Below are positions 29,041 through 63,959 of a stretch of 64,000 nt of DNA, one piece after another. The position numbers and the translations under genes are program-made. Every line of letters begins with the position of its first letter. The stretch's first letter is position 1. The notes below the pieces were generated by a model. It did no database searches. It was not told where the DNA came from and saw only the letters and a program-made list of their open reading frames with translations. This stretch comes from a virus (Duplodnaviria > Heunggongvirae > Uroviricota > Caudoviricetes): positions 27,069 to 91,068 of the IMG/VR virus record IMGVR_UViG_3300027782_003987. One strand, written 5' to 3'.

Positions 29041-29041
29041 T

Positions 29042-32463: not shown

Positions 32464-32561
32464 ATTGGATTAAAAGAATGTGGGCCAAGATCACACTAGA
32501 AATTCGCTATCGTAAAAAATTGCGAGAACTTCGTAAACGAGATCCGTTCATCTACAAATGA
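32460..32561 (+). CDS. small basic hypothetical peptide (33 aa, MNWIKRMWAKITLEIRYRKKLRELRKRDPFIYK)
   Basis: ATGA overlaps with both flanking genes, filling the gap between 32463 and 32558. Under 60 aa, so absent from the ORF track. Confidence 0.3.
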   Translation: MNWIKRMWAKITLEIRYRKKLRELRKRDPFIYK

Positions 32562-39931: not shown

Positions 39932-40863
39932 TTGTAGTAATTCTCAAATCCTTCTGCTACATCAACTTTTGGATCATAGCCTAACACAGCTCTAGCACGA
40001 TCTATGTTCAACGCACCACGGCTTGGAAAGTCAGCATCCTTGTCGCGTAGTTCAATCGAGCCTTGCCCCACGAGCTCAACGATCATGCCAGCAGCCTGTA
40101 GTAGACTCACGCTGTGACTTTTTGTAATGTTGAATGTTCGGCACTCACCCACAAATCTCGTAGCAGCGGCCACGATACCATCAGCAGCGTCATCCACATA
40201 GGTGAAGTCTAGGGTTTCACTAGATCCGTTGACCCGGAGCACTCCGCCGCGCATTGCTGCGAGCATGAATTTGGAGACGACTCGGTCTTCAACATCAAGT
40301 GGCCCATAAACAGCACTGGGACGGATAATAACGTGATCAAAACAACCACGGCGAGTATAATCTTTGACAAGTTCTTCTCCTGCTAGTTTCATTATGCCGT
40401 ACTGACCTTGTGGCCTACATACAGCGTCTTCGGTGACATCATCTTTGAAGTCACCATACACCATTGAGCTGGAAATATACACAACTCGGTTTACTTTGTG
40501 TTTTTTGGCACTCTCAAGCACATTGATCAAGCCTTCCATCATCACTCTAGATCCCCATGCAGGGTCGGCATTCACAACCTTCTGTCGTGGAAAGCTGGCC
40601 ATATGGATCACTACATCGGGCTGCTCTATCTCAAATATGTCGTCGATTGATTCTCTATCACAGATATCTCGATTATACAAGTGCGATGGTGATAACTGGA
40701 TCTTCTTCAGTCTTTCCACCATCAAGTAGTCAAGTTCTGATTGTGGAATCATTCCGTATGTGGTACGATTATCAATTATGGATGCTGTGTGGCCTTGCTC
40801 TTGTAGTCGTTTGACCACATTGTGCCCGATCAGACCTAGCCCGCCTGTTACTAGAATTTTCAT
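39898..40863 (-). CDS. NAD-dependent sugar epimerase/dehydratase
   Basis: MKILVTGGLGLIGHNVVKRL Rossmann motif. Start at 40863 is preceded by a GGGAGGGAAG SD; the listed ORF is extended upstream. Confidence 0.7.
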   Translation of the reverse strand: MKILVTGGLGLIGHNVVKRLQEQGHTASIIDNRTTYGMIPQSELDYLMVERLKKIQLSPSHLYNRDICDRESIDDIFEIEQPDVVIHMASFPRQKVVNADPAWGSRVMMEGLINVLESAKKHKVNRVVYISSSMVYGDFKDDVTEDAVCRPQGQYGIMKLAGEELVKDYTRRGCFDHVIIRPSAVYGPLDVEDRVVSKFMLAAMRGGVLRVNGSSETLDFTYVDDAADGIVAAATRFVGECRTFNITKSHSVSLLQAAGMIVELVGQGSIELRDKDADFPSRGALNIDRARAVLGYDPKVDVAEGFENYYKWFTTSPYWKL

Positions 40864-41132
40864 CTTCCCTCCCATTTCAGTTTGTAGAACATATACACCT
40901 GTTCGTCCATCACGGTAAATTTCCCCTCGTAATGATCCCAATGGCGACCATTTAGATATTGCCCACGCGGTCCGTAAGTGTTCCGTAACCACTGATGCAC
41001 TTCGTCCTTGAGATGTCCTTGTATCCTATACACCAGTATAGGCACAAATTCTGTGCCGTTCCATACCAGTTTTCTTACAGTGCGGTATGGGACTTCTACT
41101 GCGTCTATGTATTCAATTTGTGGTGCGAACAT
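40860..41132 (-). CDS. hypothetical protein
   Basis: ATGA coupling to the epimerase gene. Confidence 0.45.
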   Translation of the reverse strand: MFAPQIEYIDAVEVPYRTVRKLVWNGTEFVPILVYRIQGHLKDEVHQWLRNTYGPRGQYLNGRHWDHYEGKFTVMDEQVYMFYKLKWEGR

Positions 41133-51362: not shown

Positions 51363-51596
51363 TCAATATTTGCGGTGATGACTGCGAGAAACCACATCTT
51401 GCGGCTTGTAAAGCCAACTGCGATCTACAAATCCTTGCTCAATTTCGCGCAGAGCAGTTACAGCGTGGCTGGAAACTTTGGTAACTTTGGGCATGTCTCC
51501 ACGGGCTAATTCTCGGGCTCGACGTGCTGCGACCAGCACCATTTCGTAACGGTTTCCGATCATTGCTACTGCGTTTTGACTGGTGATTCTTGCCAT
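51363..51596 (-). CDS. rpoZ: RNA polymerase omega subunit (RpoZ)-like protein
   Basis: [29 protein letters not shown]...ALREIEQG aligns to bacterial RpoZ ([29 protein letters not shown]...ALREIEEG). Confidence 0.6.
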   Translation of the reverse strand: [77 protein letters not shown]

Positions 51597-51647
51597 GGGT
51601 TTCTCCTAGAGGTTGTTGATAGTTACAGTATACAGCAAATTCACCGG

Positions 51648-51971
51648 CTAGTCAATCTTATTGTAGCCAATTTTATTCTTAGTCACCATCAGGTCATCGG
51701 TGCAGCCGGTGCATCTTGATCGATTGCATATAGTAGGTTGATCAAGTAATCGCCACCCGGAGGTTAGATTACCCAAGTGGTCATTTTGGCATTGCCCACC
51801 ATATACATTGTTGTCAGTGTCTATGTAGAGCCTGCTGTAACCAACTTCGCACTCCCATCCTGACCAATGGTCTAGATCTTGGTTGTGTAGCCAATTTGCA
51901 TCAACACGATATCTCTGTGAATCAGACAATACCAGTTCGCAATTATAAAATTCATGTGTTGGGTATTGCAA
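51648..51971 (-). CDS. SPASM/twitch-like Cys-rich domain ORF, probably the frameshifted C-terminus of the upstream rSAM gene (PqqE-like)
   Basis: CEVGYSRLYIDTDNNVYGGQC...HLGNLTSGW...CNRSRCTGC fits the SPASM consensus. Only a TTG start is available and it overlaps the rSAM ORF by 20 nt in another frame. Confidence 0.45.
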   Translation of the reverse strand: MQYPTHEFYNCELVLSDSQRYRVDANWLHNQDLDHWSGWECEVGYSRLYIDTDNNVYGGQCQNDHLGNLTSGWRLLDQPTICNRSRCTGCTDDLMVTKNKIGYNKID

Positions 51972-52584
51972 GATTCAATTTACCTTTCATGATAGGGATC
52001 GCACGGGTCTGAAAGCCATAATCAATTTCGTTAACATTGTGGCTTATGTTGTGATCTGTCAGCAACTTTTGATAGTGTGGAATCCGATCTTGATTCCATG
52101 TTTCATTCATGATGTTCACATGTATGAATTTATCACTATGGATGTTTTTGTGTAGTTTGACAACGGTATCAAAGAACCTTTGTTCGTTGATATGTTCTGT
52201 GTGGGTGCTAAATGATATGTTGTCCACAACTTCAAACAATTTGAGATAATAATTGTAGGTCGCACTACCATTAGTAGTTAGTAATATTTGCTTTATGTTG
52301 TCTGCGTATTCTTCTCGTAACCATCGTATCAATGGATAAAATGCTCGATTACCAGTGACCTCTCCGCCGGTAAAACCGATCTTGTATTTGAGGTTGCGAT
52401 GACTGCTTTGATTATAGATGCTGATCCAATTGGATTTAAGCTCATCTAGGCTCTTGTGTTTGCTGGTATCGTCATGCCACTGAGTAGGGCAATACATACA
52501 ATCGTAATTACATCGACGACCTAGTTCCCAAGTGATTGAGAAACACTTGTCTGTGGGTAATATCTTTACTAGTTCCGGCTGCAT
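51952..52584 (-). CDS. radical SAM enzyme core (PqqE-like, lacking a SPASM domain in this frame)
   Basis: CNYDCMYC CxxxCxxC and GFTGGEVT GGE motif. The local pattern ITWELGRRCNYDCMYCPT resembles PqqE LAELTYRCPLQCPYCSN. Confidence 0.7.
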   Translation of the reverse strand: MQPELVKILPTDKCFSITWELGRRCNYDCMYCPTQWHDDTSKHKSLDELKSNWISIYNQSSHRNLKYKIGFTGGEVTGNRAFYPLIRWLREEYADNIKQILLTTNGSATYNYYLKLFEVVDNISFSTHTEHINEQRFFDTVVKLHKNIHSDKFIHVNIMNETWNQDRIPHYQKLLTDHNISHNVNEIDYGFQTRAIPIMKGKLNLAIPNT

Positions 52585-52593
52585 CTTTGTTAC

Positions 52594-52839
52594 TTACCAC
52601 TCAACTAATTTCTTGATATCTTTGTGCTTGACGATGATGATGTTGTGTATCCGATCTTGGAACTGTATGGGTAGGTCGAGATGGATGGATATCTGAGGAC
52701 CGTTAGCTTCGTTGATCACTGTGTCATTGCCCACAGAGCCAACAAAGGGAATCTTGTTCCAATGGCCGAACACACGGTCGCCGATCCAGTATTTTGGCTT
52801 GTAACCTTTTTCGTTGAAGTAATCTGATTGGGTTCCCAT
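52594..52839 (-). CDS. hypothetical 81-aa protein between the precursor peptide and the rSAM gene (candidate peptide-binding partner)
   Basis: Position only; no recognisable motif. Confidence 0.4.
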   Translation of the reverse strand: MGTQSDYFNEKGYKPKYWIGDRVFGHWNKIPFVGSVGNDTVINEANGPQISIHLDLPIQFQDRIHNIIIVKHKDIKKLVEW

Positions 52840-52875
52840 AGTGCATTGTAGTATATATCAAACAAAAAGTCAAGA

Positions 52876-52897
52876 AAAAGCCCACCGAAGTGGGCTT
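52876..52897 (-). terminator. attenuator/terminator hairpin directly after the PqqA-like peptide gene
   Basis: Minus strand reads AAGCCCACTTCGGTGGGCTTTTTCTTG. An identical 22-26 nt element recurs at 54139..54160. Confidence 0.55.
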
Positions 52898-52904
52898 GTG
52901 CTTG

Positions 52905-52979
52905 TTAGCGATTCAAAATATACATAGAAATTTCAAATCCGAAACGCATATCGCTTGCTTGTGGTGTAGACCATTTCAT
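52905..52979 (-). CDS. PqqA-like RiPP precursor peptide (24 aa: MKWSTPQASDMRFGFEISMYILNR)
   Basis: Strong SD AAAGGAGAAAATT before the ATG. Aligns to PqqA ([23 protein letters not shown] / [23 protein letters not shown]) with the E-x3-Y cross-link residues and C-terminal NR conserved. Under 60 aa, so absent from the ORF track. Confidence 0.65.
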   Translation of the reverse strand: MKWSTPQASDMRFGFEISMYILNR

Positions 52980-53023
52980 AATTTTCTCCTTTAGAATGAC
53001 ATACTGTCCAAGTATGTATGTGT

Positions 53024-53052
53024 ATTATAACACAAGATTCCTAAAGATAATC
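53024..53052 (-). promoter_or_regulatory. candidate promoter for the PqqA-like cassette (good -10 TATAAT, weak -35)
   Basis: Minus strand reads ...gattatctttaggaatcttgtgtTATAATacacatac. Shares the TATAATACAC box with the other promoters. Confidence 0.35.
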
Positions 53053-53081: not shown

Positions 53082-53882
53082 TTACTTGCCACTGTTCATC
53101 ATCAGTGCGTTGAAGTTACTTGGAACAACAATGGTCTGGACCCGGCCGTTCTTAATACCTTCAGAGATATTCAACATGGCCTGTGCCTGCATGAATGCAA
53201 TTGAACTACCTGAGTTGTTGGCCAATGCTGCCATACGACGGCTTTCAGCTTCAGCAGTCTTAACTTCAATTTCTTTCTGCTTTAGTTCGTTCTTGGATTT
53301 AACCAATTCATTAGCACTAGCCACAACCGAATCTGCTGGAACAATGTTACGAATCAACACCTGACTGATGGTGATGCTACCATCCAATTTTTCCTCAGCA
53401 AGATTTCGAATGATCTCTTCCTTGATGAAGTTTTCCATATCGCTACGAGCATCTGCCATATCCAAGGCTTCATGCTTACGAGCAGCTTTGTAGATAGCAT
53501 TACGAGCGTTCTGCACAATGTAGTTGTACATCACATAGGTGTCGCCCCTAAACTCGGCATGGAAGCTCTTGTTCTTAGTGGAGTACAGCTCGGATACTTG
53601 CTGGGGGTTGATGTTGTAGACCACAACTGCGTCGAAGTCTTTCATTGTTGAGTTGTCTTTGGCCACTGGAGTCATATTCTCCAAGGTAACATTGACATCT
53701 TTGATTGGAAAGGTCAGCACTTCTCCAATCAAACTTTGATTAAACGAACCTGGCAAGAGTTCTCCACTCTGAACCTGTTTATCAAACCCAACTCGTACAC
53801 CGACTTCGCCGGTTTCAATACGAGTGCAACCTGTGGCTAGAACAGCCGCAGCCAAAATAGAGAGAGTGAGAATACGCTTCAT
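53082..53882 (-). CDS. SPFH/band-7 (prohibitin/stomatin-like) lipoprotein
   Basis: Lipobox LATGC signal peptide. SPFH-like core with a coiled-coil EIEVKTAEAESRR tail. Confidence 0.6.
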   Translation of the reverse strand: MKRILTLSILAAAVLATGCTRIETGEVGVRVGFDKQVQSGELLPGSFNQSLIGEVLTFPIKDVNVTLENMTPVAKDNSTMKDFDAVVVYNINPQQVSELYSTKNKSFHAEFRGDTYVMYNYIVQNARNAIYKAARKHEALDMADARSDMENFIKEEIIRNLAEEKLDGSITISQVLIRNIVPADSVVASANELVKSKNELKQKEIEVKTAEAESRRMAALANNSGSSIAFMQAQAMLNISEGIKNGRVQTIVVPSNFNALMMNSGK

Positions 53883-54069: not shown

Positions 54070-54138
54070 CGGCAACTCCTGAATATGTGTCGTTAACAGT
54101 TTTATTGTACACGAAGAGCCCGGGTGTGTCAACCAAAA

Positions 54139-54160
54139 AAAAGCCCACCGAAGTGGGCTT
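54139..54160 (-). terminator. terminator hairpin after the tmRNA coding piece (plausibly bidirectional)
   Basis: AAAAGCCCACCGAAGTGGGCTT flanked by T-runs on both strands. Identical to the element at 52876. Confidence 0.55.
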
Positions 54161-54174
54161 TGGTTGTTTTGATG

Positions 54175-54560
54175 ACAAGGTAAGTCCTACCTCGGAGATC
54201 ATGCTGCTAGAGCGAAGATCTCATCGTTAGATGCGTTTGCATTTAAAGGTTTTGCGTCTACGGCCGGGAATCCCCAACCCTACGGCTTCTGCTTTGCCGA
54301 GCTGTCCACTCTGTTACTTGTTGCCCTGTCGAAACCATGGCAGGCCCATCAAAAGCATATTGTAAAATCACTTGCGAAAACATCGAAACGCCAAGGTGAT
54401 CGGTCTTTCGAATACACACCGCAATATGCTTGTGGTGGACCTGGCGGGAGTCGAACCCGCGTCCAGAACACTTTTCTCTTTGCTTCATACAGCAATAACT
54501 TTCAACACTATACGGTCTATCCATGCTACTTCTTGGAGAGGTTGCATGTGGTGTACCAGC
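54175..54560 (-). ncRNA. ssrA: two-piece, circularly permuted tmRNA (ssrA): acceptor piece ~54560->54425, intervening hairpin 54424->54348, coding piece 54347->~54175 with tag ANASNDEIFALAA
   Basis: The acceptor piece ends GCGGGTTCGACTCCCGCCAGGTCCACCA (T-arm, acceptor 3' strand and CCA). The coding piece starts GGGCCTGCCATGGTTTCGACAGGG (compare E. coli GGGGCUGAUUCUGGAUUCGACGGG), which pairs with CAGGTCC and includes a G3.U70 pair. The tag frame GCA AAC GCA TCT AAC GAT GAG ATC TTC GCT CTA GCA GCA TGA lies at 54199..54240. A 10-bp inverted repeat (aagcatattg/caatatgctt) brackets the intervening segment. The outer boundaries are approximate. Confidence 0.8.
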
Positions 54561-54764: not shown

Positions 54765-55547
54765 TTACAATCGATTCTTATTCTGCCGGGCTAACCAGTG
54801 ATCATAGATCTCGAAATATTGATCTGGATCAACAATGTCAACCAGGTCTGTGATACGAGATCTGAACCGAATTGGATCCAACAGATCACTGAGATCAATG
54901 CTCTCATCAAAATCATATGAACATTCTCGCGGTGGGAATTGCACCCCACCGGCTAGGGCTTGTTCGTGATACCATGCACCCAGTTGTTTATTGCGTCCCA
55001 GTTCAATGAACCATTCACGCTGTTCGGGAGTCTTGGCTGCCGCATTAAGAAAGTTTTCACCAATGTCATCGCGGGTGAGATAGTCGTCGGCATCCAGCAC
55101 TTTGTAGCAGAATGAATCTAACACAAATAGCCAATGCTGTTTATAATAGGTCACACCAATGAGTTTTACACGATCCTTGAAATGTGATTTGATCAGTCTT
55201 GCTTGTTCAATGTCGCATACGTTAAAGAAAAATGGTTTCTCTAAGTTGGATACCCGTTCTAGATCCTGTTGCCAGTTACGACTATACCAATGTCGATACG
55301 GTGTGCAGGGAAACTGCTCTAATACAGAGTTATCCCAAGTCACAGTGGCTCTACCAGCAGCATTGATTCCGCTGTATCTCACAGCAGAAATGATATCAGG
55401 ATTCAAGGTCCAGGCAGTGCTGATGATGTCGCCACCTGAACCTGCGGTATGGTATAGGATGGTTCCTGTTTGCATTGTTTTATTTAGTGGTGCTCCTAAC
55501 AAGAATTGAACTTGTAGCTCGCCCTTACCAAGGGCGTGTATTGCCAT
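54765..55547 (-). CDS. hypothetical protein, possibly glycosyltransferase-like (DxD VLDADDYL)
   Basis: 260-aa ORF. The true start may be the internal MQTGTILY. Confidence 0.45.
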   Translation of the reverse strand: MAIHALGKGELQVQFLLGAPLNKTMQTGTILYHTAGSGGDIISTAWTLNPDIISAVRYSGINAAGRATVTWDNSVLEQFPCTPYRHWYSRNWQQDLERVSNLEKPFFFNVCDIEQARLIKSHFKDRVKLIGVTYYKQHWLFVLDSFCYKVLDADDYLTRDDIGENFLNAAAKTPEQREWFIELGRNKQLGAWYHEQALAGGVQFPPRECSYDFDESIDLSDLLDPIRFRSRITDLVDIVDPDQYFEIYDHWLARQNKNRL

Positions 55548-55565
55548 TATACTATAGGAGCATGT

Positions 55566-55640
55566 TGGTCTCCGCGACCAGAATTGAACTGATATTTAAG
55601 TCTTAGGAGGACCTCGTTCTATCCTTTGAACTACACGGAG
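55566..55640 (-). tRNA. tRNA-Arg (anticodon CCU)
   Basis: Manual fold: acceptor CTCCGTG/CGCGGAG (C1-G72), D-arm GTTC-AAAGGATA-GAAC, anticodon loop CTCCTAA, T-arm ATCAG-TTCAATT-CTGGT, CCA encoded. Confidence 0.65.
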
Positions 55641-55645
55641 CGGAA

Positions 55646-55720
55646 TGGCCGGCCCTGAGAGGATCGAACTCCCACCTCCGGGTTCGAAGCCCGGAATGAT
55701 ATCCATTTCACCAAAGGCCG
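55646..55720 (-). tRNA. tRNA-Arg (anticodon UCG)
   Basis: Manual fold: acceptor CGGCCTT/AGGGCCG, anticodon arm CCGGG-CTTCGAA-CCCGG, T-arm GGGAG-TTCGATC-CTCTC, CCA encoded. Confidence 0.65.
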
Positions 55721-55790
55721 ATGTAAAAGAACCCTGCCGTAACATGCAACATTAGAAGAGGTTGCATGCCAGAGGGCAGAGCCGTGTTGT

Positions 55791-55878
55791 TGGCGGAAGC
55801 GGTGAGATTCGAACTCACGGACCCTTGCGAATCGCTAGTTTTCAAGACTAGAGCCATAGACCACTCGACCACACTTCC
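55791..55878 (-). tRNA. tRNA-Ser (anticodon UGA), type II
   Basis: Acceptor GGAAGTG/CGCTTCC, anticodon loop CTTGAAA, long variable arm, T-arm GTGAG-TTCGAAT-CTCAC, CCA encoded. Confidence 0.7.
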
Positions 55879-55886
55879 TGGATTGT

Positions 55887-55961
55887 TGGAGCGGGCAACG
55901 AGAATCGAACTCGTAACTTAACTTTGGCAAAGTTATGTGTTACCACTAGCACCATGCCCGC
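55887..55961 (-). tRNA. tRNA-Gly (anticodon GCC)
   Basis: Acceptor GCGGGCA/TGCCCGC, anticodon loop TTGCCAA, T-arm ACGAG-TTCGATT-CTCGT, CCA encoded. Confidence 0.7.
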
Positions 55962-55971
55962 TTATGTTGTT

Positions 55972-56000
55972 ATTATATATTCAAATTTGATTGATGTCAA
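55972..56000 (-). promoter_or_regulatory. consensus sigma70 promoter TTGACA-N17-TATAAT driving the tRNA block Gly-Ser-Arg-Arg
   Basis: Minus strand reads TTGACAtcaatcaaatttgaataTATAAT. The -10 ends about 10 nt before the tRNA-Gly 5' end, and the element overlaps the 3' end of the rSAM ORF. Confidence 0.6.
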
Positions 56001-57024
56001 TCTTCTTAGTAGCATTGACTCGCCTCACGCTGTGACTGATCCCACAATACTGTCTGCAAGGTCTCATTAGATTTCTCACCGGTTCGGCACTCTCCCACAA
56101 ATGTGCGAGATCACCCCGTTTACCAATCTTGAAACTGGGAAACTGATCTGAAAAACACAGTCGGGCAACACCGTCCATATTGACCATGATGTTGCGATCA
56201 AAACTATTACATATGGCATCTTCTGTGCCGTCGCCATCCCAACCTGTGACAGCATCCTGATTCCGAAACACACTGCGATGATACTTGCGAACTGTTTCCA
56301 TGTATTCAGGATCCAGATTCAACTGGTATTTTTCTGTACAGTGATTCAAGATCTCAAACAATGTTTCATGATCACGGATCACATTGTTGTCGTAGAACTT
56401 GTCAGGTCTTGGATCACCATTCCGGTCCAGTAATGTGCCAAATGTGGGCTGCAACCAGTTTAACTTTAACTTGTCTGCCTTTAGATCATTCAACACAAAG
56501 TCATAGAACTGATCTAGGTCCTTGTAATTCTGTTCGCACATCACGCTCATGGCGTAGATGGGTGTGTTGCTGTTTAATTCTTTTCTTGCCTGCAACAACA
56601 ACCGGATAGCGTTCACTGCTAGGTCAAATGATCCTGTGACTCCGCGGGTGGAATCATGCACCTCAGGGATATAACTGTTTAGAGATATTGTTATTTCACT
56701 TGGGCCTTCGGTGAGTAATCTCCGAGCAAAACGAAGATCAGTGACCATGGTACCGTTCATCACGCTTAGACATCGTAATCCTAGTGAGCGGCACTGCCTT
56801 GTTATGGGCCAATACCTTTCGGGATTCATCAATGCTTCACCACCACAGATCACCACAGCCCCTTGGGGATTCAGTGTGCTGAACTCTGCGATGATATCAC
56901 TACGCTGTTCAATAGATATATGTGTGGGTAATACGACTTCTTCCCGTGTCCAATACATGCAGGTCTTGCATTTGAGATTGCATTGTAGGTTGATATCTAA
57001 GAACAGGAACTTGGGTGGTTGCAT
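55981..57024 (-). CDS. radical SAM enzyme with a C-terminal twitch/SPASM-like domain
   Basis: N-terminal CNLKCKTC and VICGGEALM motifs. C-terminal MDGVARLC...IGKRGDLAHLWES...CRQYC. Confidence 0.75.
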   Translation of the reverse strand: MQPPKFLFLDINLQCNLKCKTCMYWTREEVVLPTHISIEQRSDIIAEFSTLNPQGAVVICGGEALMNPERYWPITRQCRSLGLRCLSVMNGTMVTDLRFARRLLTEGPSEITISLNSYIPEVHDSTRGVTGSFDLAVNAIRLLLQARKELNSNTPIYAMSVMCEQNYKDLDQFYDFVLNDLKADKLKLNWLQPTFGTLLDRNGDPRPDKFYDNNVIRDHETLFEILNHCTEKYQLNLDPEYMETVRKYHRSVFRNQDAVTGWDGDGTEDAICNSFDRNIMVNMDGVARLCFSDQFPSFKIGKRGDLAHLWESAEPVRNLMRPCRQYCGISHSVRRVNATKKIDINQI

Positions 57025-57718
57025 TATCTATTTAACACAACATTCTCGGGTTTGACTCCGTGCTCGTTGCTGCTGCTCAACAACCATGCCTTCTCGTGTT
57101 GGACTTGGATTCTAGGATCTGCCCATACTTGGTATCCTGCGTTTATTGCTCTGTGGCAGAATCCTGTGTCCTCGGATAGGAAAGCGGTTGTATCATCTTT
57201 GATTTCGTATTCAACGGGTTTGAAGAATGGGCATTCCATGGATTCAAACACACCTTTTTGCACAGCCATAAAGCCCATGCCAGAAGCAGCCAACTGGAAT
57301 CTATATCCATTCACATGCACCATCTCTCGTGGTAACCATAGCAAGTCGGTTTTACTATCACTGTGGAACACTGCCTGTGCATAAGTTTTGTTGTCGTGCT
57401 GTATATAGAATCCAGTGACGATCCGGTGTTCAGGAACACTGATTAACTTTTCAAGATCCTCGGGTGTCCAGATGTTATCGTTGTCAATCCAGATGATCCA
57501 ATCGTAATCTAGCACACCGTTGAATGGCTGGAAGGTCCTTGGCGGATTTCCTGTGGCACCCAACAGCATGTTTCTACAGTTGTAGATCACTGGCGAATAT
57601 GCATTTATCGTCACATATTCTATGTTGTTTTTATAAAGCCAGCGTATGGTCGAATTCCATGCGTTCATCCAGTTCTTGCTGAATGATTGACCAGGAAAAC
57701 AAAAAACTAATTTCATTT
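57024..57718 (-). CDS. glycosyltransferase-like protein (DxD DNDNIW)
   Basis: The listed ORF (to 57782) would overlap tRNA-Ser. The ATG at 57718 (MKLVFCFPG) sits just below the tRNA. Confidence 0.5.
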
Positions 57719-57725
57719 TAAATAT

Positions 57726-57812
57726 TGGCGGAGAGTGTGGGAGTCGAACCCACTCGCCCCTTTCGGAGCGTCGGATTAGCAATCCGATGCCTTACCATCC
57801 AGCCCACTCTCC
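57726..57812 (-). tRNA. tRNA-Ser (anticodon GCU), type II
   Basis: Acceptor GGAGAGT/ACTCTCC, anticodon loop TTGCTAA, long variable arm, T-arm with TTCGACT, CCA encoded. Confidence 0.7.
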
Positions 57813-57821
57813 AATGTTGCT

Positions 57822-57850
57822 ATTATATAGCAAAATTCAAAACAAGTCAA
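57822..57850 (-). promoter_or_regulatory. sigma70-like promoter TTGACT-N17-TATAAT for tRNA-Ser(GCU)
   Basis: Minus strand reads TTGACTtgttttgaattttgctaTATAATagcaacatt followed by the tRNA 5' end. Confidence 0.55.
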
Positions 57851-58048
57851 TCAAAATCGAGCACTGCATCAAGTTTAAGGGCAGTCAGGTTCAACACCCG
57901 GAGCCCTCCAGTCACATATTTAGATGATGACTACTCACCTCCCTAATCTGGGTCAGAGGCACTGGTTTCAATTTTTGGTCCCTTGCAGTTGGGCCCATCG
58001 TCAATGAGTTTTTAACTCGCCCGATTTGATTGATCTTAAATATTCCTG

Positions 58049-58321
58049 ATGTTGAAGCAACACATACCTCGTAACCTACGACAACGAATCATCGAACGCG
58101 ATGGGCCTCGGTGTGTGTATTGTGACGAAGATCTCAGCAGTGCCGAAATCCACATGGATCATGTGATACCTGAATCACAGGGTGGAGAGACCACTTACAA
58201 CAATCTGCAAGTGACCTGCCGCAAGTGTAATCTTGCCAAGGGCGTTCTCACCGAAAGTGAATTCACACAACGACTCAGGACTCGTGCTTCTAACATTCTA
58301 AATAGACTTGGAGCGGGGTAG
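58049..58321 (+). CDS. HNH endonuclease
   Basis: CVYCDEDL...HMDHVIPESQGG...NLQVTCRKCNLAKG HNH motif. The 3' end overlaps tRNA-Gly(UCC) on the other strand by ~13 nt. Confidence 0.75.
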   Translation: MLKQHIPRNLRQRIIERDGPRCVYCDEDLSSAEIHMDHVIPESQGGETTYNNLQVTCRKCNLAKGVLTESEFTQRLRTRASNILNRLGAG

Positions 58322-58382
58322 GAGAATCGAACTCCTGACATCAACTTGGAAGGATGAGGTAATACCATTTTACGAACCCCGC
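58309..58382 (-). tRNA. tRNA-Gly (anticodon UCC)
   Basis: Acceptor GCGGGGT/ACCCCGC, D-arm GTAA-AATGGTA-TTAC, anticodon loop CTTCCAA (one T.T mismatch in the stem), T-arm AGGAG-TTCGATT-CTCCT, CCA encoded. Confidence 0.6.
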
Positions 58383-58454
58383 GGTATTGGGATGGGCTTC
58401 TCACCCAATTGACCCTAAACGGGCTGTTGACGGCTCTCTTTCACGCCGCCCAGG

Positions 58455-58937
58455 TTAGGCTGCTTTGCGATTGCTCAGCACCCAATCTAGTCTGTCTGCT
58501 GCATAACTAGCAGCGAACGCTCTTGGCTTGACCATTGGAATCACATTACAAGTTCCTTTTATATATCCAATTGCCTGGTTTACTACCACAGAACTCTTGT
58601 GCATCTGATCAGGGTTGATGTCCAAGTGGACTTCAACTAAACGATCTTCTAACACATCTGCCATCTTCTGGAACAGTTCACTTACCTTGTAAACTTCATT
58701 CATCAGTCGCATGCTGGGCTTATCGCTGCGTTGATCCCAGTCGCGTTCACGATGCACTTCACCAAAGATCTTGCAACCATGACAGCTATCGATATGTACA
58801 ACTACCGCCAGAGCATAGTCGGCATGCCATATGCCATCTACTTTGACTCGTTCACTATCGCAGCCCAGATACACACTGGTTTCAGGACTTTGAGCATGTA
58901 TAAATGCTTTGACTTTTTCTAGGTCCATTTTTTTCAT
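58455..58937 (-). CDS. hypothetical protein
   Basis: 160-aa ORF. Confidence 0.45.
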   Translation of the reverse strand: MKKMDLEKVKAFIHAQSPETSVYLGCDSERVKVDGIWHADYALAVVVHIDSCHGCKIFGEVHRERDWDQRSDKPSMRLMNEVYKVSELFQKMADVLEDRLVEVHLDINPDQMHKSSVVVNQAIGYIKGTCNVIPMVKPRAFAASYAADRLDWVLSNRKAA

Positions 58938-58943
58938 GATTCA

Positions 58944-58975
58944 CTTTCTTTGTTGGCGTACCCACTAGGACTCGA
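58944..58975 (-). pseudogene. tRNA 3'-half fragment (T-arm, acceptor 3' strand and CCA only)
   Basis: AAGTCTAGGTTCGAGTCCTAGTGGGTACGCCA. No matching 5' half nearby. The 3' acceptor end GGGTACGCCA is identical to that of tRNA-Trp at 59449, which lies on the other side of an HNH gene. Confidence 0.45.
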
Positions 58976-59001
58976 ACCTAGACTTTTGTATAAATAAACA
59001 T

Positions 59002-59448
59002 ATGAAATGTTTACATTGTTCTAACCCACTAAGTGGTTATCAAAAAAAGTTTTGTTCGAGTTCCTGTTCGGCTATTCATTCTAACTTACTTACTCCACGC
59101 AGAACTAAAACTAATCCTTTGTGGCACGATTGTCCTACTTGCGGTAAGCAAACACGGAACATTCGCTACTGTTCCAATGAATGCAAACCTAAACTAACTC
59201 CGCAAGAAAGATATGCTAAACATAAAGCCATGCATAACGAAGCCTGGCACCGCTATATGGCTAAACGAAAAAATCAAACACCCAAGAGTGTTGATATAAA
59301 AGCATTACAACAGTTCTATATAAACTGTCCTGATGGACACGAGGTAGATCATATTCATCCTGTATCTAAAGGTGGGTTGCACACCTTGGAGAATTTACAA
59401 TATCTTACGATATCAGAAAACAGGAAAAAATCTAACAAACTAATATAG
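59002..59448 (+). CDS. HNH endonuclease
   Basis: Cys4 N-terminus plus HEVDHIHPVSKGGLHTLENLQYL HNH-N motif. Embedded between the tRNA fragment and tRNA-Trp. Confidence 0.7.
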   Translation: MKCLHCSNPLSGYQKKFCSSSCSAIHSNLLTPRRTKTNPLWHDCPTCGKQTRNIRYCSNECKPKLTPQERYAKHKAMHNEAWHRYMAKRKNQTPKSVDIKALQQFYINCPDGHEVDHIHPVSKGGLHTLENLQYLTISENRKKSNKLI

Positions 59449-59522
59449 TGGCGTACCCTGAGAGATTTGAACTCCCACCGACGGTTTTGGAGACCGATAT
59501 GCTGCCGTTACACTAAGGATAC
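59449..59522 (-). tRNA. tRNA-Trp (anticodon CCA)
   Basis: Acceptor GTATCCT/AGGGTAC, anticodon loop CTCCAAA, T-arm GGGAG-TTCAAAT-CTCTC, CCA encoded. Confidence 0.6.
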
Positions 59523-59538
59523 ATTTCACATTACACTT

Positions 59539-59630
59539 TGGTACGAGCGGAGAGGATCGAACTCTCTCAAGAACGCTAATCTGGCGCTAAAAGGCGTATA
59601 AGACCTCTCTGACTCCCAAGTCTCGCTCGC
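59539..59630 (-). tRNA. 92-nt tRNA-like gene of unresolved identity (possible anticodon UAU, or a type II or intron-containing tRNA)
   Basis: Clear acceptor GCGAGCG/CGCTCGT-A-CCA (G1.U72) and T-arm GAGAG-TTCGATC-CTCTC. The D and anticodon arms do not fold canonically by hand. Confidence 0.4.
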
Positions 59631-59636
59631 ATTGTC

Positions 59637-59711
59637 TGGTCCGGCGTAACAGAATCGAACTGCTATCTAGGGAGTAGAAATCCCCTGTATTATCCATTAT
59701 ACTAACGCCAG
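59637..59711 (-). tRNA. tRNA-Arg (anticodon UCU)
   Basis: Acceptor CTGGCGT/ACGCCGG, D-arm GTAT-AATGGATA-ATAC, anticodon arm GGGGA-TTTCTAC-TCCCT, T-arm AGCAG-TTCGATT-CTGTT. Confidence 0.65.
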
Positions 59712-59713
59712 AT

Positions 59714-59752
59714 AAATTTACTCTGATATTCTCTGTAAATTTACTTTGATAT
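59714..59752. repeat. tandem 17-nt direct repeat (AAATTTACTCTGATATT / AAATTTACTTTGATATT) between tRNA-Leu and tRNA-Arg
   Basis: Seen directly in the sequence; approximate coordinates. Confidence 0.5.
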
Positions 59753-59839
59753 TGGTACGACTGACCGGACTCGAACCGGTACGCCCTTACGGACATCAGA
59801 TTTTAAGTCTGAGGCGGCTACCTATTTCGCCACAGTCGC
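59753..59839 (-). tRNA. tRNA-Leu (anticodon UAA), type II
   Basis: Acceptor GCGACTG/CAGTCGT (G1.U72), D-arm GCG-AAATAGGTAGC-CGC, anticodon arm TCAGA-CTTAAAA-TCTGA, 15-nt variable arm, T-arm ACCGG-TTCGAGT-CCGGT. Confidence 0.7.
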
Positions 59840-59845
59840 GTTGTT

Positions 59846-59919
59846 TGGTCTCGGTAGGAAGAATCGAACTTCCGCTTCATGCTCCCAAAGCACGGGTGAT
59901 ACCATTTCACTATACCGAG
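59846..59919 (-). tRNA. tRNA-Pro (anticodon UGG)
   Basis: Acceptor CTCGGTA/TACCGAG with the C1-G72 typical of tRNA-Pro, D-arm GTGA-AATGGTA-TCAC, anticodon loop TTTGGGA, T-arm GGAAG-TTCGATT-CTTCC. Confidence 0.7.
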
Positions 59920-59925
59920 TAGACC

Positions 59926-60004
59926 TGGTTGCGGAGGCAGGATTCGAACCTGCGATCTCCAGCTTATGAGACTGGCGGGGACGACCGGACTCCCCTACTC
60001 CGCG
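59926..60004 (-). tRNA. tRNA-Met (anticodon CAU), possibly initiator (C1xA72 mismatch)
   Basis: Acceptor CGCGGAG/CTCCGCA-A-CCA gives a C1-A72 mismatch. D-stem GGGG/CCCC, anticodon loop CTCATAA, T-arm GCAGG-TTCGAAT-CCTGC. Confidence 0.6.
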
Positions 60005-60686
60005 ATATTCTTTCTATCCTGGGCAAAAACACTGGATCTATTCTTTCACAGATACCAGCAGCTAGATCAATCTGATATTGCTTGCAAGGCACTGTGTTCT
60101 GATCTTGATGATCATGATGCTGATAATGTTCTGATCTTTCGTATTGATCATACAACGGATCAGAAATGTTTGAAATGATCGAGCTCAACACAGATCTCTG
60201 CGATTCGGTCCACGGTATGTCATATGCCTGCAATACTATGAACTCAATGTTGCGTGACTGACACCAATCCTGCAACAGCATGACCTTACAAAATACATCT
60301 TGTGCTTCTAACCCCGGACTTGCTAACCATTGATTATACAATCTTTTTGATTTGTGGTCAACACTATGACTGCTGGGCCATATGCCTCGGAATGTAAAGT
60401 TTCTCAACGAATCGGATTCAACCAATTCAGTTTGTCTTTGTGCATCAACTTCTACATCCAATTTGCCTGTGCTGGTCAGTTGCAGGATCACTTGGTTGAT
60501 CAAAGCATCTTCTAGTAGTTTTAAGAATGCTTGATTCAAGATCCATTGATTGCTCACTGCTGGACCTCCTGCATCAACAAGGTCGACCCCTACGGATCTC
60601 AGCACATTGACCCAGGTCTTTCTTTCCTGCCCGCCAAAGCTGAATCCGCAACCACTAACTAAGACTTTTTTGTTTGATAACGACAT
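59964..60686 (-). CDS. hypothetical protein
   Basis: 240-aa ORF. Its C-terminal ~40 nt overlap tRNA-Met, so the real stop and the overlap need checking. Confidence 0.45.
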   Translation of the reverse strand: MSLSNKKVLVSGCGFSFGGQERKTWVNVLRSVGVDLVDAGGPAVSNQWILNQAFLKLLEDALINQVILQLTSTGKLDVEVDAQRQTELVESDSLRNFTFRGIWPSSHSVDHKSKRLYNQWLASPGLEAQDVFCKVMLLQDWCQSRNIEFIVLQAYDIPWTESQRSVLSSIISNISDPLYDQYERSEHYQHHDHQDQNTVPCKQYQIDLAAGICERIDPVFLPRIERISRSRGVRSSPPVS

Positions 60687-61488
60687 TGATTGTATTTAAG
60701 TGATCAACTACTACCGCCTGTGATCTGTTTGGACACTGACCGCATACCGATTCCGGCACTCCTATGCCAGCGATAAATCGATCAAGATTCACCGCATCCG
60801 AGCAAGGTTCGTAATCAAACCAATTCTCTCCTGTGATATCCATCACATTTGCCACTGCTGGACATTTATACAATCGTCCCTTATACAATATTGGTGTGTC
60901 GGGAGATCCGCATATAGCATGTGACTCAGCTGGCTCGCTCATCCAAGGAGAGATTCTATTTTCTTCCAATCTAAATGGAACCACAAAATCTTTGAAAACA
61001 CTCTTGTAAATTTTAAAATCGCCCAACTGCCAAGATATTTGGCAATGATCCTGCGGATCTTCACTTACCTGTGTCTGCCATCCTTTGCGTGTTAGCAGGA
61101 TGTTTTTTATAGCCTGATCGATTATGTTTCGATGATCTGCCCGGTGCATGCTGACCTGCATCTCAAATGGCTCAAAATCAAACCAAGCCGCACTATCAAA
61201 ATTCTTTAGTAGATACCCATTGGTTATAAGGCGTATGATTGCTGTGGGCCATGATTTTCTTACCCGTCTACATATCTCTATCAATTCAGGATGCAAACAA
61301 GGTTCGCCTCCAAACAAGGTCACTACCTTGGGTTGCAATATTGTGCTCCAGTGCTCTATCCACATGGTGATGTCGTTGAGTCTGGCCACGCCATTTCTTG
61401 GCAAGTCACTGAGACTGATACAGCCACGGCAGCTGATATTGCAGGAATATGCGATCATGATATCTAATCTTGGAATCTTTTTAGGCAT
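60655..61488 (-). CDS. radical SAM enzyme with a C-terminal twitch-like domain
   Basis: CNISCRGC and TLFGGEPCLHPEL motifs. C-terminal GRLYKCP...CGQCPN. Confidence 0.75.
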   Translation of the reverse strand: MPKKIPRLDIMIAYSCNISCRGCISLSDLPRNGVARLNDITMWIEHWSTILQPKVVTLFGGEPCLHPELIEICRRVRKSWPTAIIRLITNGYLLKNFDSAAWFDFEPFEMQVSMHRADHRNIIDQAIKNILLTRKGWQTQVSEDPQDHCQISWQLGDFKIYKSVFKDFVVPFRLEENRISPWMSEPAESHAICGSPDTPILYKGRLYKCPAVANVMDITGENWFDYEPCSDAVNLDRFIAGIGVPESVCGQCPNRSQAVVVDHLNTINVVIKQKSLS

Positions 61489-62283: not shown

Positions 62284-62970
62284 TTAAAAATTGATTCTAT
62301 TCTTATCGTAATTAAATTTGATTACATTAGCATTGTCAGTATCAGTGATCTTCATTATACGTCTATATGTTTGTCCTAACACAATGTTATATTTTGCAGG
62401 ATCCTCGTAAGGAAAATGCGGAGCAATAGATGAGACTATAACACTTTTCTGATTGTGTTCGGCTAGCCCCATCATGAGAGCATTCTGATAAGATTTACTT
62501 CCTATATAACCAACATGATGTGCATATCTTGCTGTATACGCATTTTCATCAAACCTAGCATAGGTAAGACCAGTGGTCATAAAAACTATCCTATCACCGC
62601 TGGTCATTTTCGACAATGCTTTTATTGCAAAAAAGTGCGGACAAATTACTTGTATCTGTAAAGACTCTCGGTATGCAGTTGCAGGAACAGTAGAGGTCTC
62701 GGTGAACATCTGTGTTTCGTTTGGAATATCCACATAATTTGAATTATACAACATCATATCTAAATGAGCAACCTCTTTGGTCAACGCATCAAATGCATTG
62801 TTCATTGACTCAATGTTATTGAAGTCTGCAAATATCTGGTTTGGCTCTACTTTCTTACTGTGTCCATGTGATATTGTAAAAACATCATGCCCATCATCAC
62901 ATGCAAGTTCACAGAAATCTTTACCAAATTTTCCCGAGGTTTGTCCAGGGCCAATCACTAATATATTCAT
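62284..62970 (-). CDS. hypothetical Rossmann-like protein
   Basis: N-terminal MNILVIGPGQTSGKFG; 228 aa. Confidence 0.45.
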   Translation of the reverse strand: MNILVIGPGQTSGKFGKDFCELACDDGHDVFTISHGHSKKVEPNQIFADFNNIESMNNAFDALTKEVAHLDMMLYNSNYVDIPNETQMFTETSTVPATAYRESLQIQVICPHFFAIKALSKMTSGDRIVFMTTGLTYARFDENAYTARYAHHVGYIGSKSYQNALMMGLAEHNQKSVIVSSIAPHFPYEDPAKYNIVLGQTYRRIMKITDTDNANVIKFNYDKNRINF

Positions 62971-63959
62971 GAAGTCACTAATTTCCTTATTGAAATCTTC
63001 TTATGTCCTGCTGCAAATGGTTCAGCAGAAGGATTTTCCGGACACAACCTACATTGTTCAATGCTATGTCCTCGTTGAAGATTAGTTAAAAAACTTGTCA
63101 ATCGTTCATCACTCCAGGACAATTCAGCAGCCTGATAACTGTTGACTAGATCTCGTTGTTGATCGGTCATCGATACAGGAAACTGTTTTATGAACTCTGG
63201 TAATACAGTAGTGACACCGCACTTGTACAAGCGTCCTTGGAAAAAATGATGCGACCATTTAGAAAAACATGCGCTGGCTGCTCGATCAGGATCACTCATG
63301 TGAGTCAATGATAACTTACCAGTGTCTGCACTATAACCAACCGCTACATTATCAAAGCTATTGGCCACACCATATTTTACAAGGATATTATTATCGTCAC
63401 AGTAAGAGAATTCATATGTGGGGTCGTCCCATATATGCAATCCGTATTTCTGATCTACGAATTTAAATTGTTCGCTGTGATCCGGAGATTGTGTAAAGTA
63501 CCCGGGCTCAGGGTGTTCAACTCGATCGGGGTTCACATAGTATTTTCTATATGGTCCTGGATAAAATTTTTCAATCCTTGACAAGGTCGCAGCAGTTTGG
63601 TCTGCATTATGTCTATTGACATTTATTCGAATACGGCCTTGATATTCTAATAGAAGATCATACAAACCAGGCCAACGGTCAAATTGCGTACCATTGGTCA
63701 GAATCTGAATACTACTTTTAGGCCATAACTCAGCTATTCCTCGTATCCATTTTTCTAATCCTGGATTCAATAATGGCTCACCACCAAGAATTCCAATGTT
63801 TGACACGTTTAATTTCTTACTCCATTCCTGATATTCTTCAGCATGGTCGTCCCAATCAAGATGACCAGAGAATGCATAGTTGTTGTATCGATTGCATCTC
63901 GAACAATTGAGATTGCACACATTGGTGATATAAAATTCACAGTAATCAAGATTGAACAT
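62967..63959 (-). CDS. radical SAM enzyme with a C-terminal twitch-like domain
   Basis: CNLNCSRC and GILGGEPLLNP motifs. C-terminal GRLYKCG...CRLCPENP. Confidence 0.75.
   Translation of the reverse strand: MFNLDYCEFYITNVCNLNCSRCNRYNNYAFSGHLDWDDHAEEYQEWSKKLNVSNIGILGGEPLLNPGLEKWIRGIAELWPKSSIQILTNGTQFDRWPGLYDLLLEYQGRIRINVNRHNADQTAATLSRIEKFYPGPYRKYYVNPDRVEHPEPGYFTQSPDHSEQFKFVDQKYGLHIWDDPTYEFSYCDDNNILVKYGVANSFDNVAVGYSADTGKLSLTHMSDPDRAASACFSKWSHHFFQGRLYKCGVTTVLPEFIKQFPVSMTDQQRDLVNSYQAAELSWSDERLTSFLTNLQRGHSIEQCRLCPENPSAEPFAAGHKKISIRKLVTS

What the first reader, a model, noticed from the sequence alone, without database searches (positions are those of the whole stretch)
51648..53052. PqqA-like precursor peptide with attenuator hairpin, 81-aa partner, rSAM and split SPASM: a PQQ-like or RiPP cross-linking cassette
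The 24-codon ORF at 52905..52979 (MKWSTPQASDMRFGFEISMYILNR) has a near-perfect SD. It aligns along its whole length with PqqA, including the Glu and Tyr that PqqE cross-links (E-x3-Y) and the C-terminal NR. It is followed at once by a strong hairpin plus T-run (52876..52897), which looks like a read-through attenuator typical of precursor-peptide genes. Next come an 81-aa ORF (a candidate PqqD-like partner), a 210-aa rSAM core whose cluster region resembles PqqE, and a 107-aa SPASM-like ORF. The SPASM ORF overlaps the rSAM ORF by 20 nt in another frame and has only a TTG start. This is either a PqqE split by a frameshift, or a two-gene version. No pqqB or pqqC is nearby, so the product may be a Glu-Tyr cross-linked peptide rather than PQQ. 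A phage or accessory-element copy of the first PQQ step would be new.
Basis: partly seen in the sequence, partly recalled or inferred. Interest (0 to 1): 0.85.

Follow-up and report, generated by a model that had tools for sequence, protein, structure and literature searches.

The report
Phage orphan pqqA beside unrelated rSAM
A large phage that probably infects methanol-using bacteria carries its own copy of the small peptide that is turned into the cofactor PQQ. This is a known kind of phage helper gene, and the radical-SAM genes next to it belong to a different, widespread phage enzyme, so there is no new peptide-crosslinking cassette.

Summary
All the described features exist at the stated coordinates. 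The 24-codon ORF is a true PqqA: it scores above the curated cut-offs of TIGR02107 and PF08042. It has an extended -10 promoter, an AAGGAG Shine-Dalgarno site and a strong terminator, so it is a self-contained transcription unit.

The cassette reading fails.
- The rSAM scores 14.9 bits on the PqqE model (cut-off 381). A real Methylophilus PqqE scores 516.
- The 81-aa protein matches no PqqD model and is predicted to be an all-beta SH3-like barrel.
- None of 87 other loci carrying this rSAM has pqqA in the flanks held.
- None of 121 other viral pqqA loci has the rSAM, the 81-aa gene or pqqBCDE.
- Cultured Methylophilales phages carry pqqA, but no isolated phage has this rSAM.

The rSAM/Cys-rich split is real. 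It is a conserved pair of overlapping genes, not a frameshift error.

The window holds 12 rSAM genes, so adjacency to one of them is unremarkable. Phage pqqA was already reported in Lake Baikal Methylophilaceae phages in 2020.

Most likely the phage supplies the stoichiometrically consumed precursor to the host's PqqBCDE pathway.

The parts
53024..53032 (-). Extended -10 promoter element TGTTATAAT in front of pqqA
   Evidence: Read directly from the sequence. It is identical in the relative L207. An equivalent TGTATAAT is present in L335. There is no clear -35 element, and the simple scan did not flag it.
52986..52991 (-). Shine-Dalgarno AAGGAG, 6 nt before the pqqA ATG
   Evidence: An SD-like motif is found in front of 120 of 121 viral pqqA genes.
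52905..52979 (-). pqqA: 24-codon PQQ precursor peptide, cross-link residues Glu16 and Tyr20
   Evidence: TIGR02107 28.9 bits (cut-off 20) and PF08042 29.9 bits (cut-off 21.1). Conserved in L207, L333-L337 and 120 further viral contigs.
52872..52897 (-). Intrinsic terminator after pqqA: 8-bp stem, UUCG loop, T-run
   Evidence: -17.1 kcal/mol, z -3.6. Hairpin plus T-run follows 55 of 121 viral and 81 of 121 bacterial pqqA genes.
52845..52873 (-). Sigma-70-type promoter TTGACT-17-TACAAT directly after the terminator, in front of the 81-aa ORF
   Evidence: 10 of 12 matches. Identical in L207. This is a pattern match only.
52594..52839 (-). 81-aa conserved phage protein of unknown function, predicted small beta-barrel; not PqqD
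   Evidence: No Pfam, NCBIfam or PHROG family. More than 1200 homologues. AF2 model with pLDDT 74.5 is all-beta; the best PDB matches are weak CAP-Gly/Tudor hits and no RRE appears among the 50 listed.
51952..52584 (-). Radical-SAM core subunit (210 aa, CX3CX2C at C25/C29/C32)
   Evidence: PF04055 32.9 bits; PqqE model 14.9 bits against a cut-off of 381. 788 homologues. Profile against PDB: viperin and MoaA.
51648..51971 (-). Separately encoded Cys-rich auxiliary (twitch/SPASM-like) subunit. TTG start, overlaps the rSAM gene by 20 nt in the +1 frame
   Evidence: Six invariant Cys. Present after the rSAM in 86 of 87 other loci. Fused to the core in P0031 and P0036. The fused homologue folds as one twitch-type rSAM enzyme.

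Best explanation
The region holds three independent things that are neighbours only in this phage lineage.

(1) pqqA is a self-contained phage auxiliary gene with its own extended -10 promoter, a strong ribosome-binding site, a 24-codon ORF and an intrinsic terminator. The phage has no pqqB, C, D or E. The peptide is therefore most likely handed to the host's PqqD/PqqE (Glu16-Tyr20 cross-link), protease, PqqB and PqqC to make PQQ for the host's methanol or alcohol dehydrogenases. This would keep energy metabolism running during infection. Supplying only the peptide makes sense, because one PqqA is consumed per PQQ while the enzymes turn over. The host is probably a betaproteobacterial methylotroph (Methylophilaceae).

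(2) The 81-aa gene encodes a widespread small beta-barrel phage protein of unknown role.

(3) The 210-aa and 107-aa ORFs are a two-subunit radical-SAM enzyme: a core plus a detached twitch-like Fe-S domain, made by translational coupling from a TTG or ATG start. It is common in uncultivated T4-like aquatic phages and is unrelated to PqqE. Its nearest folds and its neighbours in other phages point to a nucleotide or sugar-nucleotide substrate rather than a peptide.

Shown: gene identities, the transcription signals as pattern matches, lack of linkage, and conservation of the split. Inferred: use of the host pathway, the benefit to the phage, and the rSAM substrate.
For: pqqA identity.

Autonomous unit.

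pqqA is widespread in viruses:
- Five closer relatives were also found.

pqqA in isolated phages:
- All strong matches are in phages of Methylophilales/Methylophilaceae: Melnitz x4, MEP301/401/402, P19250A and Venkman.
- There is one match in an uncultured Caudoviricetes record and weak matches in two Acinetobacter phage records.

Host link:
- The commonest viral peptide is identical to the PqqA of Methylophilus/Methylophilaceae MAGs. One of these (L215) sits in a verified pqqABCDE operon.
- The window's tmRNA is betaproteobacterial type (RF01850, 105 bits against a cut-off of 84).

No linkage:
- 0 of 87 other rSAM loci have pqqA.
- 0 of 121 other viral pqqA loci have the rSAM, ORF2, the 81-aa gene or PqqB/C/D/E.
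- The rSAM and the 81-aa protein are absent from all 50,697 isolated phage records, including those that carry pqqA.
- Relative L169 has other genes between pqqA and rpoZ.
- L335 has pqqA-terminator-promoter-81aa but no rSAM.

Not PqqE or PqqD:
- Window rSAM 14.9 bits against 516.5 bits for a real PqqE. The 81-aa protein gives no hit, against 91.4 bits for a real PqqD.
- Structure results.

The split is conserved:
- Same junction in 87 loci at 42-99% identity.
- Start codon is TTG or, in 17 loci, ATG.
- Overlaps range from 1 to 32 nt.
- Natural fusions exist.

rSAM density: 12 rSAM genes in the window.

Prior report of phage PqqA: Coutinho et al. 2020.
Against: - No expression or PQQ measurement exists. 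That the phage peptide is processed by host enzymes is inference.
- The host is inferred, not known.
- Flanks of related loci are at most 10 kb, and both locus lists were capped. Genome-wide co-occurrence of pqqA and this rSAM in uncultivated phages is therefore not excluded.
- pqqA and the 81-aa gene are adjacent in four related contigs (window, L207, L334, L335). This could reflect function rather than shared ancestry.
- The window peptide has Ser18 and Leu22 where most PqqA have Thr and Ala.
- The rSAM substrate is unknown.
Confidence: 0.75

Rival explanations
1. First reader's model. The peptide, the 81-aa protein and the split rSAM form a phage-autonomous cassette that cross-links Glu16 to Tyr20 of PqqA, either as a minimal PQQ first step or as a new RiPP.
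For: The four genes are adjacent and co-oriented. The same order is kept in L207. The rSAM is of the twitch/SPASM structural class, which includes peptide maturases such as EpeE, SkfB, SuiB and PqqE. pqqA and the 81-aa gene are adjacent in L334 and L335 as well.
Against: - A terminator and a fresh promoter separate pqqA from the rest.
- The PqqE model gives 14.9 bits against a cut-off of 381. No PqqD model hits, and the 81-aa protein has an all-beta fold.
- 0 of 87 other rSAM loci have pqqA, and 0 of 121 other pqqA loci have the rSAM.
- Cultured phages with pqqA lack the rSAM.
- With 12 rSAM genes in 64 kb, adjacency to one of them is expected by chance.
Confidence: 0.04
2. The phage PqqA is a decoy or regulator. 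It would titrate host PqqD/PqqE or a sensor and so change, rather than boost, PQQ production. Alternatively it could have a role unrelated to PQQ.
For: The window peptide departs from the usual E-[IV]-T-M-Y-I-A-N-R tail (EISMYILNR). The differences from L207 are clustered in the last 27 nt of the CDS.
Against: Glu, Tyr and the RFGFE core are intact. Most viral copies are identical or nearly identical to host PqqA, which is what a substrate would look like. Ser at the Thr position falls within the pattern found in other PqqA genes.
Confidence: 0.08
3. The rSAM and the 107-aa ORF are one gene. It would be read through by a programmed +1 ribosomal frameshift, or be broken by a sequencing error or mutation.
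For: ORF2 is in the +1 frame. The junction motif AAAGGnAAAnTnAATCTTG is highly conserved. Single-chain homologues exist.
Against: - The same split is present in 87 loci from many samples, which excludes error.
- The conserved TTG is replaced by ATG in 17 loci.
- The position of the ORF1 stop varies (overlap 1-32 nt) while the start position is fixed.
- Three loci use the other frame with TTGA/TAATG-type overlaps. This pattern is typical of coupled initiation, not of a slippery site.
Confidence: 0.05
4. pqqA is a recently captured, functionless piece of host DNA.
For: Identity of many viral copies to host peptides.
Against: It is present in at least 125 viral contigs and in nine cultured Methylophilales/Methylophilaceae phages with record lengths from 35 to 142 kb. 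It nearly always has a strong SD, and here it has its own promoter and terminator.
Confidence: 0.05

Closest known systems
Phage-encoded PqqA in T4-like phages of Methylophilaceae (Lake Baikal viral populations VP_266/VP_139; Coutinho et al. 2020, Microbiome 8:163)
   Same: An orphan pqqA on a large phage genome predicted to infect methylotrophic betaproteobacteria, proposed as an auxiliary metabolic gene for PQQ supply. rSAM genes are also present in those genomes.
   Different: No methanol dehydrogenase gene is seen in this 64-kb window. Here the transcription signals, the unannotated copies in cultured Methylophilales phages and the lack of rSAM linkage were examined explicitly.
Bacterial pqqA: operon copies (pqqABCDE) and orphan extra copies in methylotrophs
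   Same: Same family, length, Glu-x3-Tyr and RFGFE core. A hairpin after the gene is frequent (81 of 121 bacterial loci). Orphan copies are common: only 23 of 53 evaluable bacterial loci have a PqqE-like gene within 5 kb downstream.
   Different: This copy sits on a phage. It has no pqqBCDE anywhere in the window, and has Ser18/Leu22 in the tail.
PqqD/PqqE (RRE chaperone plus SPASM radical-SAM enzyme that cross-links PqqA)
   Different: It fails the PqqE and PqqD models. It has six rather than seven or more auxiliary Cys and no PF13186 hit. No RRE is present. It does not co-occur with pqqA.
Twitch-type radical-SAM enzymes acting on nucleotides or sugars (BlsE, MoaA, viperin, BtrN)
   Different: The auxiliary domain is a separate polypeptide in nearly all members. 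No family model reaches its cut-off. The substrate is unknown.

Membership tests
PqqA (TIGR02107 / PF08042) | Score above the curated family cut-off over the full model | tested here: met
   28.9 bits against 20, and 29.9 bits against 21.1; model positions 1-21/21 and 1-19/19.
PqqA (TIGR02107 / PF08042) | Conserved Glu and Tyr separated by three residues (the atoms that become PQQ) | tested here: met
   E16-I-S-M-Y20. Kept in L207 and in all 125 other viral copies.
PqqA (TIGR02107 / PF08042) | Encoded next to pqqBCDE | tested here: not met
   Verified Methylophilus PqqB/C/D find nothing in the window. PqqE gives only a weak generic rSAM hit at 63744-63929. Orphan copies are also common in bacteria, so this does not exclude membership.
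PqqA (TIGR02107 / PF08042) | Converted to PQQ | not testable with these tools
   Needs complementation or LC-MS.
PqqE (TIGR02109) | Score above the family cut-off | tested here: not met
   14.9 bits against a cut-off of 381.35. The positive control, Methylophilus PqqE, scores 516.5 bits.
PqqE (TIGR02109) | C-terminal SPASM domain with two auxiliary clusters | tested here: not met
PqqE (TIGR02109) | Genomic association with pqqA across relatives | tested here: not met
   0 of 87 other loci with this rSAM have pqqA in flanks of up to 10 kb.
PqqD / RRE (TIGR03859) | Family model hit | tested here: not met
   No hit for the 81-aa protein at E <= 1. The control PqqD scores 91.4 bits against a cut-off of 46.
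PqqD / RRE (TIGR03859) | Winged-helix fold (three strands plus three helices) | tested here: not met
   The AF2 model is six strands and one short N-terminal helix, pLDDT 74.5. The best PDB matches are CAP-Gly/Tudor at E >= 0.01, with no RRE in the 50 listed. Model confidence is moderate.
Radical SAM superfamily, twitch/SPASM subclass | CX3CX2C cluster motif and rSAM core | tested here: met
   CNYDCMYC; PF04055 32.9 bits against 29.5.
Radical SAM superfamily, twitch/SPASM subclass | Cys-rich auxiliary Fe-S domain C-terminal to the core | tested here: inconclusive
Phage auxiliary metabolic gene / moron | Host-derived metabolic gene with its own promoter and terminator in a phage genome | tested here: met
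   Extended -10, SD and terminator as pattern and energy evidence. Phage context: 14 tRNAs, a tmRNA and homologues on viral contigs. Peptide identical or close to host PqqA.

The most novel reading that the evidence does not exclude
In this phage lineage the small beta-barrel 81-aa protein, which sits directly after pqqA in four related contigs, could be a non-RRE peptide-binding partner. The two-subunit twitch rSAM could then act on the phage PqqA, giving a host-independent cross-linked peptide or PQQ intermediate.
Probability: 0.04. Interest if true: 0.8.

Novelty: new member of a known kind. Interest (0 to 1): 0.3.

Why it matters
The value here is mainly corrective. A tempting "phage RiPP cassette" resolves into a known type of auxiliary gene plus unrelated neighbours.

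Three points still have modest value.
1. Orphan pqqA looks like a near-universal and mostly unannotated marker of phages of Methylophilales/Methylophilaceae. It is useful for host prediction and for thinking about viral control of methanol oxidation.
2. Supplying only the consumed precursor peptide is a neat, minimal way to boost a cofactor pathway, and it is directly testable in the OM43 and LD28 phage-host systems.
3. The detached twitch-domain rSAM, and the 12 rSAM genes in this window, point to unexplored radical chemistry in large aquatic phages.

Tried and rejected
- **Faulty bacterial scan.** My first pattern had one N too few after the Pro codon and returned zero hits. That zero is an artefact and is not used. 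The corrected pattern worked.
It was replaced by IUPAC DNA patterns.
- **L267** was chosen as a source of pqqBCDE but turned out to be an orphan bacterial pqqA. It was replaced by L215, whose operon was verified.
- **ORF2 profile against PDB sequences** found nothing useful.
- **PHROGs** has no family for PqqA, the 81-aa protein or ORF2.
- **Programmed +1 frameshift** was considered and rejected because of TTG-to-ATG replacement and the variable position of the ORF1 stop.
- **The 347-aa SPASM-like rSAM at 55981-57024** was considered as an alternative PqqE analogue. It also has no homologue near any of the 121 other viral pqqA genes, and PqqE is not among its best 25 families.
- **The OM43 transcriptome paper** gave no information on pqqA expression.
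- **Not used:** the metagenome-contig scan and the representative-protein search.
Full report
**What is in the sequence**

- pqqA-like ORF: 52905..52979 (MKWSTPQASDMRFGFEISMYILNR), with AAGGAG 6 nt upstream of the ATG.
- Hairpin: 52897..52878, 8 bp, UUCG loop, followed by a T-run.
- 81-aa ORF: 52594..52839.
- 210-aa radical-SAM ORF: 51952..52584 (CNYDCMYC).
- 107-aa Cys-rich ORF: 51648..51971. It starts with TTG and overlaps the rSAM ORF by 20 nt in the +1 frame.

The hairpin folds at -17.1 kcal/mol, with z = -3.6 against shuffles. The scanner reports it as a terminator.

- A sigma-70-type promoter, TTGACT-17-TACAAT (52873..52845), begins right after the terminator.
- An extended -10 element, TGTTATAAT (53032..53024), precedes pqqA.

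pqqA is therefore a complete transcription unit of its own, and the downstream genes do not need read-through. These signals are pattern matches, not measured transcripts.

**Context**

The window looks like part of a large phage genome.
- It has 14 tRNA genes and a permuted tmRNA. The tmRNA scores above threshold on the betaproteobacterial model (RF01850, 105 bits against 84).
- It has a 4080-aa ORF, ThyX, MoxR/VWA genes and sugar-modification genes.
- Homologues of its genes lie on IMG/VR viral contigs, some next to gp32, UvsX and terminase.
- It contains 12 ORFs with the CX3CX2C motif, including a tandem array of eight at 18.7-31.4 kb. Lying beside one rSAM gene in this genome is therefore weak evidence of linkage.

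**The small ORF is PqqA**

It scores 28.9 bits on TIGR02107 (cut-off 20) and 29.9 bits on PF08042 (cut-off 21.1), matching end to end. Glu16 and Tyr20 are in place.

A contig with 92% nucleotide identity (L207) keeps the ORF with two amino-acid changes (EITMYIANR in place of EISMYILNR). Its promoter, SD and terminator are identical.

All 120 hits are true PqqA ORFs, and 120 of 121 have an SD-like motif.

Among 50,697 isolated phage records, all strong matches are in phages of Methylophilales/Methylophilaceae: Melnitz x4, MEP301/401/402, P19250A and Venkman. There is also one match in an uncultured Caudoviricetes record and weak matches in two Acinetobacter phage records. In most of these records the gene is unannotated. 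In Melnitz the annotated CDS at that spot is antisense to it.

The commonest viral peptide is identical to the PqqA of Methylophilus/Methylophilaceae MAGs. In L215 that gene heads an operon whose products I verified as PqqB, PqqC, PqqD and PqqE.

Phage PqqA was already described for T4-like Methylophilaceae phages of Lake Baikal (Coutinho et al. 2020).

**The rSAM is not PqqE, and the 81-aa protein is not PqqD**

- The rSAM reaches 14.9 bits on TIGR02109, against a cut-off of 381. The control PqqE reaches 516.5 bits.
- Its best, still sub-threshold, family hits are viperin-like, MoaA and STM4011-type enzymes.
- A profile of 34 homologues finds viperin and MoaA in the PDB, and no PqqE at E <= 0.01.
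- The 81-aa protein hits no PqqD model, whereas the control PqqD scores 91.4 bits.
- Its AF2 model (pLDDT 74.5) is an all-beta barrel. The PDB matches are weak CAP-Gly/Tudor hits, and no RRE appears among the 50 listed.

**Linkage test**

- The rSAM family has 788 detected homologues.
- In 87 other loci carrying it, with flanks of up to 10 kb, a PqqA HMM finds nothing.
- In the reverse direction, none of 121 other viral pqqA loci contains a homologue of the rSAM, ORF2, the 81-aa protein, the 347-aa rSAM at 55981-57024, or Methylophilus PqqB/C/D/E.
- Neither the rSAM nor the 81-aa protein occurs in any isolated phage record. The cultured phages that carry pqqA therefore do without them.
- In relatives at 73-74% identity, the rSAM pair sits after uvsX and another rSAM gene.
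- Closer relatives of the pqqA region show a mosaic. L169 has pqqA, an unrelated 237-aa gene and small ORFs, then rpoZ. L335 and L334 have pqqA, a terminator, a promoter and the 81-aa gene, but no rSAM.
- The pqqA-rSAM adjacency is thus seen only in the window and L207.
- The pqqA-81aa adjacency occurs in four related contigs, always with a terminator in between where the sequence was inspected. The 81-aa family has more than 1200 members, and the other contexts sampled have no pqqA.

**The split rSAM**

- An ORF2 homologue follows the rSAM core in 86 of 87 other loci, at 42-74% rSAM identity. The single exception is cut off by a contig end.
- ORF2 is in the +1 frame in all but three split loci.
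- The ORF2 frame opens only one codon before a conserved TTG (motif AATCTTG). That TTG is replaced by ATG in 17 loci.
- The ORF1 stop lies 1 to 32 nt downstream of the ORF2 start.
- Two natural fusions exist, P0031 and P0036.
- ORF2 has six invariant Cys: C11, C41, C61, C82, C87 and C90, arranged C-x19-C ... C-x4-C-x2-C-T-D-D.

This pattern fits two translationally coupled genes encoding a core and a detached twitch-like Fe-S domain. It does not fit a sequencing error or a programmed frameshift.

**Mechanism proposed**

The phage transcribes a short, well-translated pqqA message and relies on the host's PqqD, PqqE, protease, PqqB and PqqC to turn it into PQQ for periplasmic methanol or alcohol dehydrogenases.

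The logic is that PqqA is the only stoichiometrically consumed component of the pathway. This point, and the statement that bacterial pqqA is often followed by a hairpin that gives abundant short transcripts, come from established knowledge of PQQ biosynthesis. The hairpin frequency was also checked here: 81 of 121 bacterial and 55 of 121 viral loci.

Use of the host pathway and the benefit to the phage are inferred. The rSAM pair most likely acts on a nucleotide or sugar-nucleotide. This is a low-confidence inference from its fold neighbours and from sugar and nucleotide genes near it in other phages.

**Verdict**

The region is a new instance of a known kind of phage auxiliary gene beside unrelated genes, and interest is low to moderate.

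Noticed in passing
window 18658-31439 (+), 51952-52584, 55981-57024, 60655-61488, 62967-63959 (-): Twelve ORFs with the CX3CX2C radical-SAM motif lie in 64 kb, eight of them in one tandem array. Several array members have an N-terminal SPASM domain (PF13186). Paralogues of the array genes lie near the split rSAM in many other viral loci. This is an unusually rSAM-rich phage region of unknown purpose.
   Followed up: partly
window 32558-34033, 37947-40992; 37-12279: Sugar-modification genes flank the rSAM array: a carbamoyltransferase, a GFO/IDH/MocA oxidoreductase, a DegT aminotransferase and an NAD epimerase/dehydratase. Next to them is a 4080-aa ORF with FG-GAP and CBM5/12 hits. Together they suggest a complex glycan or a modified giant fibre.
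   Followed up: partly
window 51363-51596 (-); L169 2106-2357: The phage encodes a homologue of the RNA polymerase omega subunit (TIGR00690 49.1 bits against a cut-off of 23.6). It has its own TTGACT-17-TATACT promoter-like site at 51655..51627. A homologue is also present in a related viral contig.
   Followed up: partly
window 54108-54548 (-), 55488-60004: A permuted (two-piece) tmRNA of betaproteobacterial type, with tag AKPLNANASNDEIFALAA, plus 14 tRNA genes in two clusters.
   Followed up: partly
L001 5993-6067 (-) = MZ577097.1 76134-76205 (+): Methylophilales phage Melnitz carries an unannotated pqqA (MKWTKPVAQEMRFGFEVTMYIMTR). The CDS annotated there (MelnitzEXVC044M_152) is on the opposite strand. 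pqqA is also unannotated in MEP301, MEP401, MEP402, P19250A and Venkman.
   Followed up: yes
window 52905-52931 vs L207 7567-7593: Between the window and its 92%-identical relative, the pqqA promoter, 5' UTR and terminator are identical. Eight substitutions are clustered in the last 27 nt of the coding sequence (EISMYILNR against EITMYIANR), which looks like a small recombination patch.
   Followed up: no
window 52998-53016 (-); L335 about 1473-1491: A 7-bp stem (ACATACT ... AGTATGT) lies at the start of the predicted pqqA 5' UTR. The stem is conserved between the window and L335 while the loop differs (TGGAC against AAGAC). It may be an mRNA-stabilising 5' hairpin.
   Followed up: no
window 52839-52850 (-): The ATG of the 81-aa ORF lies only 5 nt after the -10 hexamer TACAAT and has no Shine-Dalgarno site, so the message may be leaderless. 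In L335 the homologue has a normal SD (GGGAGA).
   Followed up: no
window 53082-53882 (-): An SPFH/Band-7 lipoprotein (PF01145 63 bits; phrog_200) is encoded just upstream of pqqA.
   Followed up: no
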